From contig NC_043010.1 of NCBI RefSeq assembly GCF_006345805.1, forward strand, positions 59,334,001 through 59,398,000: 64,000 nt of DNA, given 5' to 3'. This DNA comes from Octopus sinensis (Eukaryota). Positions 18,801-21,800 of this stretch are shown here, in pieces (the first letter of the stretch is position 1; each line of letters begins with the position of its first letter). A program made the position numbers.

Positions 18801-21800
18801 TTATCAAAATTCTTTTATTGAATACAAAGTTAAAAAATCTGATGACTCATTTTCCCTGACAGTTTCCAAAAGAGCTGATGGTATTTCCTCGTTAAAGATT
18901 GTTTTAAAACAGAAATTAGACAGAGAGTTAAAAGAGAAATACAATTTAGAAGTAATTGCTAAAGATGGAGGTTCTCCATCTAAACAAAGTGTATTAAATG
19001 TTGAGATTGTTGTCGAAGATGAGAATGATAATCCACCTGTATTTTCAAAACCACTTTATAATATTTCCATTAGAACCACACACGACAAGACAAAACCTAT
19101 TCTTACTTTGTCAGTGACAGACAAAGATGCGGGTTCCAATAGTAAAATTACTTTCCATTTCAGCCCCAAAACTTCCAGCCAAGCAAAGGGATATTTTGAT
19201 TTAAATGAAAACAGTGGAGAAATATTTTCAACTAAGTATTCTAAATTAGATGAAAAAACAACATATGAACTGTTCATAGAGGCCAGAGATGGGGGTAGTC
19301 CTCCCCTCAGTTCCATAGCAACTGTTTTGGTAAATGTCATCAACCAACACAACAATCCTCCATCTATTGATATTGATTATGTTTCTGCAATCAATGACAA
19401 CACAGCTACCATTTCTGAAGACATCAAAGTTGGTAGTTTCATTGCTTATGTGATGGTCACTGACAATGATGTGGGACAAAATGGAGAGGTCAGCTGTGAT
19501 ATCAAACATGATACATTCAAACTACAGTCAATGGGATCCAAGGAATATAAAATCATTCTAAACAAACCAGTGGACAGAGAAATACAAGGACACTATAACA
19601 TTCCTGTCTCCTGTCAAGATAAAGGATTACCTCCTCTTAAAAGTGTTAAAAGCCTCTCTATCCAAGTGACTGACATCAACGATGTACAACCACAGTTTAC
19701 CAAAGATACATTCCAATTCCTCACCTACGAAAACAAAGATAAAGACTTCCCTATTGGTTTTGTCAATGCCACTGACCCTGATCTTGGATCTGCTGGACAA
19801 CTCACATATTCTCTGCTGCGTAAAGAAAAATCCAATCTCCCATTTCTCATCACCAGTTATGGCTTCATTTCAGCGACCATGTCATTGGACAGAGAGAAAC
19901 AAGATGTGTATAAGTTTGAGGTTTTTGTCAAAGACAATGGAAGCCCATCTCTGAATGACACAGCGAATGTTGTTGTTGAGATTCTAGATCAAAATGACAA
20001 TGCTCCGTATTTTACATATCCTAGTAGTGACCCTTACACGCTAAATGTGCAGTACCATCCGCAGAGTAAGAGTGACATCACAGTTTTGAGAGCCTCTGAT
20101 GGGGACAGTGGAAACAATGCTTTCCTCAGATATGCAATCATACAAGGAAATGATAAACAGTTGTTTAGTATGAACTCACACAGTGGTGCTTTATCCTTCT
20201 CCAGACAAGTTTATCTAAATGATGCTGGAAGTTATGAGCTGGTGTTTGTTGTGAAGGACAGTGGTAGTCCAGTTCAGTCGTCAACAACTAGTGTCACTTT
20301 GGTATTGGCTGTTAGTAACGAGACATCACCAATGTCGAAGAGTGGACCTTTACAATCTTCAGGTCGGGTCCATATGACATGGGTTATTATCATTGTATCA
20401 TCAGCAGTAATAATATCAGTGGCTATTGTTGTTTCTATAACGCTATGTATTATGAAATGTATTAAACACAGAGATAACACAGCTGCTGCCACAAAGAATA
20501 CAGCCTACCAAGGTAGAGCAGAGATGAAACAATTGTTGTACCAGACTAACACTTCTGTTGCTATGTCGAGGAATGCAGAAGAGATGGTGAAGCGGAATAT
20601 CTATTCTGAGAGATCCAAGAGTGAATGTTATGCAGAAGGTCAGCTACAGAACAAATATGAATCTTCAGTTCAGTCGAGAACTTTACCAAAACCTACCCAA
20701 GTAAGTCTTAAGATATTTTACATCTGTGTCTTAAGTTTGAAGTAAAAAATTAGTTTGTGTAATTGTTTATATTATTAATTTCATTTTTTTTATAAATCTT
20801 AATCTTAAGAGTAAATATCCAATGTTTTTCAATTTCTTTTATTTTCATTATACAGAAGTACAGTCAGCCAGTTGTGGTGACTTCGAATGATGATGCTGTT
20901 GAAGTAAGTAGTCTGACATCAACATATCAGACAGGAACACTGTCTTCCCAGCGAAATAACGAACATGGACCCAGTGTAGGAAATCTGAAACATTATGAAG
21001 AAATACCAGAGATGTCAGGTGACTAGTAACATCAAAATCAAAATAGTTCTGATCATTTATCTAATTAAATGTATAATTTGGAACAGCATCTTAATTTTAG
21101 ATTTACCATTAGTGTTAGAATCTTTTTTTACATTGCTGTTAATGTTTTATAGTATTCATAGTATTTATGTAAAAAGCACCCACTACACTCTCAGAGTGGT
21201 TGGCATTATGAAGGGCATCCAGCTGTAGAAACTCTGCCAGATCAAGATTGGAGCCTGGTGCAGCCATCTGGTTTGCCAGCCCTCAGACAAAATCGTCCAA
21301 CCCATGCTAGCATGGAAAGCGGACATTAAACGATGATGATGATTCAAATATTAACTATTTTATTGAATTTTATAATCTATATTTTAAAAGGATGTCAAAT
21401 TAGCTGAGAAGAGAATGTTTTCTACCATAGACTATAGCTCCTCTATTAATATATGAAGATAATAATGTGAGGAGTTTTAAGTATCTGCATCAATACAATG
21501 CCAACCGCTGACCAAAATCTTAATTTTTGATATCCTCACACTGGTATTGAACCCTACCCTCTGGGAAAGAAGCTTAACTCTCAACTGCCATTTGAAGAGA
21601 TAGTTCTAGAGTGTTGCTTGTTGTATAATGCTCAAAATCTACCATAGTTCAAAGAAAGGTAATGGAGAAACAGCTCCAGTAGAACAGGACACATTCCATG
21701 ATCTCCTGACAAAACAATGCTCTACTGGATATTATTTAAAATAACTGATTAAAAAGGATTAAGCTTTGGCCAACTTAATAATTTTAGAATATTTATCATT

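What the first reader, a model, noticed from the sequence alone, without database searches (positions are those of the whole stretch)
19330..20672. A protocadherin constant region apparently maintained by gene conversion rather than by splicing
Seen: unit C 19330-20658 and unit D 29346-30666 differ at only about 14 substitutions plus small in-frame indels over ~1.3 kb. Unit A 1-517 and unit C 20156-20672 differ at 2 synonymous sites, and unit B 11667-12117 is similarly near-identical. EC1-EC2, all introns and both tail exons are barely alignable. The tract starts at the EC3/EC4 linker and stops 28 nt before the splice donor. Established: vertebrate clustered protocadherins join variable exons to shared constant exons, use N-terminal ECs for trans specificity and EC5-EC6 for cis contacts, and show domain-restricted gene conversion. 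Cephalopod arrays arose independently. Inference: here each gene has a variable EC1-3, a constant EC4-6/TM/juxtamembrane core and a private tail, an independent route to a combinatorial cell-identity code.
Basis: partly seen in the sequence, partly recalled or inferred. Interest (0 to 1): 0.85.

Follow-up and report, generated by a model that had tools for sequence, protein, structure and literature searches.

The report
Gene conversion homogenises octopus protocadherin cores
Neighbouring octopus protocadherin genes, two of them dead, share a nearly identical 1.3-kb stretch for the membrane-near half of the protein, most likely because the copies keep overwriting each other, as in the unrelated vertebrate clusters.

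Summary
Four tandem protocadherin units (A-D, + strand, about 10 kb apart) share a core running from the EC3/EC4 linker to 28 nt before the exon-1 donor. Core identity is 98.7-99.6% (C/D: 14 substitutions plus two in-frame indels). EC1-3, the introns and the tail exons are saturated. dS is 0.01-0.04 in the core, 0.41 in a 200-nt transition zone, and 1.3 or more outside.

In Argonauta hians and in the Octopus-like records the core groups by genus, with 35 fixed differences in 447 columns. EC1-3 and the tails group by orthologue across genera, and AU tests reject the opposite groupings.

Domain-restricted gene conversion is the best explanation (0.85).

- Units B and D are pseudogenes that still carry an intact core.
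- In intact members EC1 is also nearly constant, so the variable part is EC2-EC3.
- The tails fall into a few shared types rather than being private.
- A cell-identity code is untested.

The same pattern is well known in vertebrate clustered protocadherins, and conversion has been suggested loosely for cephalopods. I file this as a new member of a known kind.

The parts
1..545 (+). Unit A, 3' end of exon 1 (end of EC6, TM, juxtamembrane). Bases 1-517 are core. Bases 518-545 are the diverged last 28 nt. Donor GT at 546.
   Evidence: open frame; alignment; 2 substitutions vs C; donor
1167..1311 (+). Unit A tail exon 2. Open frame with the conserved KHYEEIP motif.
   Evidence: tblastn best match is the A. 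hians P0013 tail, 84%; translation and donor
2686..2763 (+). Unit A tail exon 3 with its stop codon. The 5' limit is approximate.
10853..11658 (+). Unit B, decayed and rearranged EC2-EC4 remnant. 11104-11458 is 64% identical to C 19078-19444. 11453-11567 is an inverted piece, 82% to C 19347-19463. 11574-11658 is 87% to C 19488-19573. A 572-nt deletion relative to C follows.
11657..12117 (+). Unit B core tract (end of EC6, TM, juxtamembrane), 98.7% identical to C 20146-20606. Donor-like GT at 12143.
12370..12492 (+). Unit B remnant resembling tail exon 2, with in-frame stops.
18328..19137 (+). Unit C exon 1, variable part: signal peptide, EC1, EC2 and most of EC3.
19138..19335 (+). Unit C transition zone (end of EC3). 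About 77-88% identical to D, dS 0.41.
19336..20672 (+). Unit C homogenised core: EC3/EC4 linker, EC4-EC6, TM, juxtamembrane.
20673..20700 (+). Last 28 nt of C exon 1. Homologous but diverged in every unit. Donor GT at 20701.
20856..21018 (+). Unit C tail exon 2.
22233..22312 (+). Unit C tail exon 3 with its stop codon.
28357..29153 (+). Unit D decayed EC1-EC3. It matches every homologue only across three frame changes, at no more than 56% amino-acid identity.
29154..29351 (+). Unit D transition zone. C-type (74% amino-acid identity to C), with two in-frame stops. The long open frame starts at 29259.
29352..30665 (+). Unit D homogenised core. Open frame, 14 substitutions and two in-frame indels vs C.
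30666..30701 (+). Diverged end of D exon 1. Donor-like GT at 30702.
30853..31020 (+). Unit D remnant resembling tail exon 2. It has an in-frame stop and has lost the KHYEEIP motif.

Best explanation
The window holds the end of a tandem, same-strand array of octopod protocadherin genes. Each gene has one large exon (signal peptide, EC1-EC6, TM, juxtamembrane) and two small tail exons of its own.

Repeated non-reciprocal transfer (gene conversion) between neighbouring copies keeps one stretch nearly identical. It runs from the EC3/EC4 linker to a few dozen bases before the exon-1 donor. EC2-EC3, the introns and the tails keep their old, orthologue-specific sequence.

Shown:
- the borders of the tract;
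- the dS step;
- the clash between the trees of the two parts;
- transfer into two dead copies.

Inferred:
- Tracts stop where homology breaks down, at the hypervariable end of EC3 on one side and the unalignable intron on the other. This would explain why the last 28 nt escape and why end points differ slightly between pairs (20606, about 20658, 20672).
- The transition zone in C/D is an older, longer tract that has since decayed.
- Selection for distinct binding specificity removes conversions that reach into EC2-EC3. The shared core may serve functions common to all members.
For: Gene identity:
- C exon 1 has 6 cadherin repeats plus the Cadherin_2 domain.
- Its best solved relatives are protocadherin gammaB4 and delta2 protocadherin ectodomains.
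- The closest named proteins come from A. hians and three Octopus species.

Borders and chance.

dS by Nei-Gojobori:
- C/D EC1-3 in three segments: 1.31-2.57.
- Transition zone: 0.41.
- Core: C/D 0.043, A/C 0.018, B/C 0.019, A/B 0.010.
- Tail exon 2: pS 0.68-0.82 (saturated).

Cross-genus test on 13 proteins, 3 unnamed Octopus-like and 10 from A. hians:
- Core identity is 97-100% within each set and 88-90% between sets.
- EC1-3 identity is 62-85% within A. hians.
- P0002 is closer to A. hians P0004 (82%) than to P0003 (72%). P0003 is closer to P0009-14 (81-85%).

Trees:
- EC1-3 gives three cross-genus clades, with supports 97/99, 93/91 and 98/97.
- The core groups the Octopus-like rows together (95/94).
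- AU tests reject an A. hians clade in EC1-3 (p 7e-85) and a P0002+P0004 clade in the core (p 4e-37).

Fixed differences between the genera: 35 of 447 core columns, 0 of 291 EC1-3 columns.

The 5' change point lies at residues 310-335 in 37 of 45 A. hians pairs, and at 356-376 in the other 8.

Control for constraint: between subfamilies the core is 6-10 points more conserved than EC1-3 in 8 of 10 comparisons. The other two differ by 21 and 27 points.

Dead copies B and D carry intact cores.

A second subfamily of 32 named proteins behaves the same way:
- Core identity is 97.8-98.2% within a genus and 94.1% between genera.
- The core tree needs 1 change of genus label. The EC1-3 tree needs 4.
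Against: - No reads were available, so the copies in this window are not independently verified.
- The cross-genus test is at protein level only. No cephalopod DNA outside the window could be fetched, so dS between species and formal GENECONV/RDP runs are missing.
- P0002, P0003 and P0008 are unnamed records. I did not establish their species. If they come from more than one close species, 'within species' on the Octopus side rests on the window's own four copies.
- I named the AU groups after seeing the identity tables, though before the trees.
- The groups were defined by core identity of 95% or more, so their high core identity is partly by construction. Only their low EC1-3 identity is informative.
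- The EC1-3 tree of the second subfamily also shows genus-specific clades. Recent duplication therefore contributes too.
- GC3 is only slightly higher in the core (0.363 vs 0.300), a weak sign of biased conversion.
- C/D core differences are 12 synonymous to 12 non-synonymous, and all indels are in frame. This is odd for a dead acceptor unless the donor was another live paralogue.
Confidence: 0.85

Rival explanations
1. Assembly or polishing artefact. Reads from diverged paralogues were mixed, so the consensus of a 0.5-1.3 kb repeat was made uniform.
For: Near-identical segments about 10 kb apart are where such errors occur, and no reads could be examined.
Against: - Each copy keeps private substitutions and indels.
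- The borders are sharp, lie at homologous positions, and the transition zone is graded.
- A database protein matches C exon 1 at 787 of 791 residues.
- The same architecture appears in proteins annotated from A. hians and O. sinensis.
Confidence: 0.04
2. Recent whole-gene tandem duplication, followed by very fast divergence of EC1-3 and the tails under positive selection. No transfer between copies would be needed.
For: EC2-EC3 is where binding specificity is expected by analogy with vertebrates (passages of PMC4978886 and PMC7811963). Genus-specific clades exist in the EC1-3 tree of the second subfamily.
Against: - Synonymous sites in EC1-3 and tail exon 2 are saturated, and the introns are unalignable.
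- EC1-3 clades and tail types cross the Octopus/Argonauta split, while the core does not.
Confidence: 0.05
3. Extreme purifying selection on the core, at protein or nucleotide level (for example an embedded RNA or regulatory element), without transfer.
For: Between subfamilies the core is somewhat more conserved than EC1-3.
Against: - All paralogues of a genus share 35 fixed differences. Constraint cannot produce that.
- The pseudogenes B and D carry the core.
- No Rfam family matched.
- The fold of the exon 1 to exon 2 junction was no better than shuffles (z 0.06).
Confidence: 0.03
4. Unequal crossing-over that creates chimeric genes (birth and death with recombination), rather than non-crossover conversion.
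For: - The units are tandem, on one strand, at about 10-kb spacing.
- B carries a deletion and an inversion.
- P0008 looks like a mosaic of two paralogue types.
Against: A single crossover would carry identity on into the downstream intron, tail exons and spacer. Here both ends of the tract lie inside exon 1, and everything downstream is unalignable. Crossing-over probably shapes copy number, but it does not explain the tract.
Confidence: 0.1

Closest known systems
Domain-restricted gene conversion in vertebrate clustered protocadherins. Source: Noonan et al. 2004b, known to me only through passages of Etlioglu et al. 2016 (PMC4978886). The original was not held.
   Same: Both are tandem arrays of protocadherins whose ectodomain and TM sit in one large exon. 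In both, homogenisation is strongest in the membrane-proximal ECs (lowest dS in EC5/EC6), and EC2-EC3 are spared and carry the phylogenetic signal.
   Different: - The expansion is independent (passages of PMC9068888 and PMC6339937).
- Here the tract is one block from the EC3/EC4 linker through the TM and juxtamembrane region, and it is almost identical (dS 0.01-0.04).
- It is documented in pseudogenes.
- There are no shared constant exons.
Constant exons of vertebrate alpha and gamma protocadherin clusters.
   Same: The outcome is alike: many isoforms differ in the N-terminal ectodomain and share an identical remainder.
   Different: Vertebrates share by splicing each variable exon to common exons that encode the distal cytoplasmic domain. 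Here every unit has its own tail exons, which are the diverged part. The shared part is EC4-EC6, TM and juxtamembrane, written into every gene.
Published descriptions of cephalopod protocadherin arrays: Albertin et al. 2022 (PMC9068888, passages), Styfhals et al. 2019 (PMC6339937, passages) and Styfhals et al. 2022 (PMC9712504, passages).
   Same: This is the same gene family and array type. [quoted passage not shown]
   Different: The passages I read give no analysis by domain, no tract borders and no cross-genus test. Albertin 2015 and Wang & Ragsdale 2017 were not held, and supplements are closed, so a prior domain-level remark cannot be excluded.

Membership tests
Protocadherin (six-EC type, cadherin superfamily) | Six tandem cadherin repeats with the protocadherin-type N-terminal Cadherin_2 domain | tested here: met
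   PF00028, 6 stretches, E 9.5e-77. PF08266, E 6.3e-11.
Protocadherin (six-EC type, cadherin superfamily) | Signal peptide, single TM, and ectodomain plus TM in one large exon | tested here: met
   An 813-codon open frame with hydrophobic N-terminal and TM stretches, judged by eye with no predictor run. ATG at 18328 and donor at 20701.
Protocadherin (six-EC type, cadherin superfamily) | Closest solved relatives are protocadherin ectodomains | tested here: met
   6e6b gammaB4 EC1-6, E 2e-93. 6vg1 and 6vg4 delta2 protocadherins.
Vertebrate-type clustered protocadherin locus (variable exons spliced to shared constant exons) | Shared downstream constant exons used by all variable exons | tested here: not met
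   A and C each have their own open tail exons within 2.3 kb. B and D have their own decayed ones. No RNA data were available.
Vertebrate-type clustered protocadherin locus (variable exons spliced to shared constant exons) | Common descent with the vertebrate clusters | not tested
   The papers state an independent expansion (passages of PMC9068888, PMC6339937, PMC9712504).
Concerted evolution by gene conversion | Abrupt change of identity on both sides, inside otherwise homologous sequence | tested here: met
   (0 of 1000 permutations).
Concerted evolution by gene conversion | Synonymous divergence depressed in the tract relative to the flanks | tested here: met
   dS is 0.01-0.04 in the tract, 0.41 in the transition zone and 1.3 or more outside.
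Concerted evolution by gene conversion | Paralogues group by species in the tract and by orthologue outside it | tested here: met
   At protein level, Octopus-like records vs A. hians. Second subfamily.
Concerted evolution by gene conversion | Formal GENECONV/RDP on the DNA of the whole array | not tested
   Only four copies of DNA were at hand. I used my own permutation and maximum chi-square tests instead.
Concerted evolution by gene conversion | Copies confirmed by reads that span unique flanks | not testable with these tools
   No read data.
Functional constant module (cis-dimerising EC5-EC6 as in vertebrate clustered protocadherins) | EC5-EC6 mediated cis-association between isoforms | not testable with these tools
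   Needs biophysics or cell assays. The vertebrate role comes from passages of PMC7811963.

The most novel reading that the evidence does not exclude
Octopod protocadherin sub-arrays have converged on the logic of vertebrate clustered protocadherins by a different genetic route. Each sub-array keeps its own species-specific 'constant region' (EC4-EC6, TM, juxtamembrane, and in most members EC1) identical in every gene by ongoing conversion. Pseudogenes take part as conversion partners. An EC2-EC3 island is shielded by selection and carries the recognition specificity. If so, the sequence alone predicts the specificity determinants and a shared cis-interaction and signalling module of a cephalopod neuronal self-recognition system.
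Probability: 0.35. Interest if true: 0.8.

Novelty: new member of a known kind. Interest (0 to 1): 0.6.

Why it matters
Cephalopods expanded protocadherins independently of vertebrates. Whether these genes work as a neuronal identity code is an open question.

Conversion homogenises the same half of the protein in both lineages, and EC2-EC3 escape in both. That is convergent evidence for a shared division of labour. It points to the residues to swap in binding assays.

There are practical consequences too:
- Whole-length trees of cephalopod protocadherins will overstate lineage-specific expansion.
- Short-read expression counts cannot tell paralogues apart over about 1.3 kb.
- Assemblies and gene models in these arrays need checking with long reads.

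Tried and rejected
- A complex-prediction job on two copies of EC5-EC6 (residues 449-680 of C) returned no verdict. It says nothing either way about cis-association.
- Rfam search of the whole window: no match.
- RNA fold across the exon 1 to exon 2 junction: no better than shuffles (z 0.06).
- Pfam on six other open frames: only a sub-threshold PHD hit.
- GC3 as a sign of biased conversion: a small difference only.
- tblastn of 120 family proteins found no protocadherin remnant in 31-64 kb.
- Noonan 2004b, Albertin 2015 and Wang & Ragsdale 2017 could not be read.
- Searches for a prior domain-level report in cephalopods found none. Subscription papers and all supplements were out of reach.
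- I considered D to be a truncated live gene and rejected it. Its EC1-3, its transition zone and its tail exon 2 are all broken.
Exon 1 was searched alone, and the tail exons were only mapped.
- No cephalopod DNA outside the window could be fetched.

Full report
What is in the window.

The window has no N, and nothing in it was taken for human. Protocadherin-like sequence lies only in 1-31 kb, all on the + strand.

Unit C is an intact gene.
- Exon 1 runs from 18328 to 20700 and codes for 791 codons: signal peptide, six cadherin repeats, TM and juxtamembrane region.
- Two small exons of its own follow, at 20856-21018 and 22233-22312.

Unit A is cut by the window edge.
- Only the last 545 nt of its exon 1 are present.
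- Its own open tail exons follow.

Unit B is a remnant.
- Decayed EC2-EC4 pieces are 64-87% identical to C. One piece is inverted.
- A 572-nt deletion follows.
- Then comes a core piece at 98.7%.
- The sequence resembling tail exon 2 has stops.

Unit D is broken in three places but has an open 481-codon core ending at the donor.
- Its EC1-3 matches every homologue only across three frame changes, at no more than 56% identity.
- Two stops lie in the transition zone.
- A stop lies in tail exon 2, and the conserved motif there is lost.

Exons were handled one by one.

The closest named proteins come from Argonauta hians, Octopus bimaculoides, O. sinensis and O. vulgaris. The closest solved structures are the protocadherin gammaB4 and delta2 protocadherin ectodomains.

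The observation.

- A/C: 2 substitutions over 517 nt, both synonymous.
- B/C: 4 substitutions over 451 nt.
- The tract begins at the EC3/EC4 linker (nt 19342, residue 339) and ends 28 nt before the donor for A/C.
- Other pairs end at slightly different points, namely 20606 for B and about 20658 for D.

Two things are new.
- A 200-nt transition zone (19138-19335) is 77-88% identical between C and D.
- The last 28 nt of exon 1 are homologous but diverged in all units.

Permuting the C/D differences gives 0 of 1000 runs as long as the observed 343-column identical run. It also gives 0 of 1000 with the observed maximum chi-square of 492.

Why gene conversion.

dS steps sharply along the gene.
- EC1-3: 1.3-2.6.
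- Transition zone: 0.41.
- Core: 0.01-0.04.
- Tail exon 2: saturated again.

The introns are unalignable. Both ends of the tract lie inside one exon. That excludes a single crossover or a simple recent duplication.

I compared 10 A. hians proteins and 3 unnamed Octopus-like records, P0002 (787 of 791 residues identical to C), P0003 and P0008.
- The core is 97-100% identical within each set and 88-90% between them.
- EC1-3 forms three cross-genus groups, and the tails form about three types that also cross genera.
- A's tail exon 2 is 84% identical to the A. hians P0013 tail. The P0002 tail is 69% identical to the P0004 tail.
- Maximum-likelihood trees and AU tests confirm the clash, with p 7e-85 and 4e-37. 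I named the tested groups after seeing the identity tables.
- All paralogues of a genus share 35 fixed differences in 447 core columns, against 0 in 291 EC1-3 columns.
- The 5' change point sits at residues 310-335 in 37 of 45 A. hians pairs, and at 356-376 in the other 8.

Constraint alone does not explain this. Between subfamilies the core is only 6-10 points more conserved than EC1-3 in 8 of 10 comparisons. The dead copies B and D also carry the core.

Generality.

Single-linkage grouping of the 120 listed proteins at 95% or more core identity gave 8 groups. The profiles of six sets from five of these groups all show a variable EC2-EC3 (52-91% per 30-residue window). They also show a 92-100% core from about residue 390 to 750, with one 85% window in one set. 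High core identity is partly by construction here.

In the largest group (23 A. hians and 9 named Octopus proteins):
- the core is 97.8-98.2% identical within a genus and 94.1% between genera;
- the core tree needs 1 change of genus label, and the EC1-3 tree needs 4;
- that EC1-3 tree also contains genus-specific clades, so recent duplication plays a part.

- Only one of the three units seen whole is alive.
- EC1 (residues 21-90) is 94-100% identical in 11 of 13 family members, even across genera. The variable island is EC2-EC3.
- The tails are shared types, not private.
- The words 'maintained' and 'cell-identity code' go beyond the data. Conversion into pseudogenes shows a mechanical process. 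Selection is inferred only from the sparing of EC2-EC3.

Comparison with what is known.

In vertebrate clustered protocadherins, conversion is strongest in EC4-EC6, and EC2-EC3 are spared (passages of PMC4978886, citing Noonan 2004b, which I could not read). There, cis-contacts use EC5-EC6 and trans-contacts use EC1-EC4 (passages of PMC7811963).

For cephalopods, the passages I read mention conversion only in general terms. They state that there is no splicing to shared exons (PMC9068888, PMC6339937).

Six searches found no domain-level report. Albertin 2015, Wang & Ragsdale 2017 and all supplements were out of reach.

Limits.

- No reads.
- No cephalopod DNA beyond the window.
- The cross-genus test is at protein level only.
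- Three key records are unnamed.
- GC3 gives only a weak hint of biased conversion.

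Noticed in passing
Database proteins P0003, P0005-P0014 (residues 21-90); compare window 18388-18597 in C: EC1 is 94-100% identical in 11 of 13 members of the subfamily, across paralogues and across genera. Only C/P0002 and A. hians P0004 carry a different EC1 (69-84% to the rest). 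One site (H vs Q) separates the Octopus-like type-2 EC1s from all A. hians ones.
   Followed up: partly
Database protein P0008 (unnamed record): P0008 is a mosaic. Its EC1 and tail are of the P0003 type (about 100%), its EC2-EC3 residues 111-270 are of the C type (85-100% per 20-residue window), and residues 461-490 are missing. It is either a conversion of the variable island itself or a chimeric gene model.
   Followed up: no
window 29352-30665: All indels of the dead unit D's core relative to C are in frame (6 and 3 nt, plus a 6-nt one near the tract end). Its substitutions split 12 synonymous to 12 non-synonymous. This suggests the donor was a live paralogue other than C.
   Followed up: partly
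window 580-925, 33603-34006, 41279-41640, 40743-41028 (inverted), 58302-58523: A dispersed repeat of about 350 bp, 82-87% identical between copies. One copy sits in intron 1 of unit A. It is probably a SINE-like element.
   Followed up: no
window 6262-6446, 21167-21343, 24364-24662, 39168-39415, 62765-63070: A second dispersed repeat of 170-300 bp, in both orientations, 80-89% identical.
   Followed up: no
window 6645-7902 vs 58812-61564 (inverted); open frame 7889-8290 (-): Two diverged copies (74-77%) of a longer element. An adjoining open frame looks by eye like the start of a reverse transcriptase, but it had no Pfam match at E 0.01.
   Followed up: partly
window 23151-23442, 36302-36427, 56750-57063, 57988-58268: TA/TG-rich microsatellites and a 129-bp unit repeated 2.2 times. 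These account for several long spurious open frames.
   Followed up: no
window 31000-64000: There is no protocadherin remnant after unit D for 33 kb. The array ends or pauses here.
   Followed up: yes
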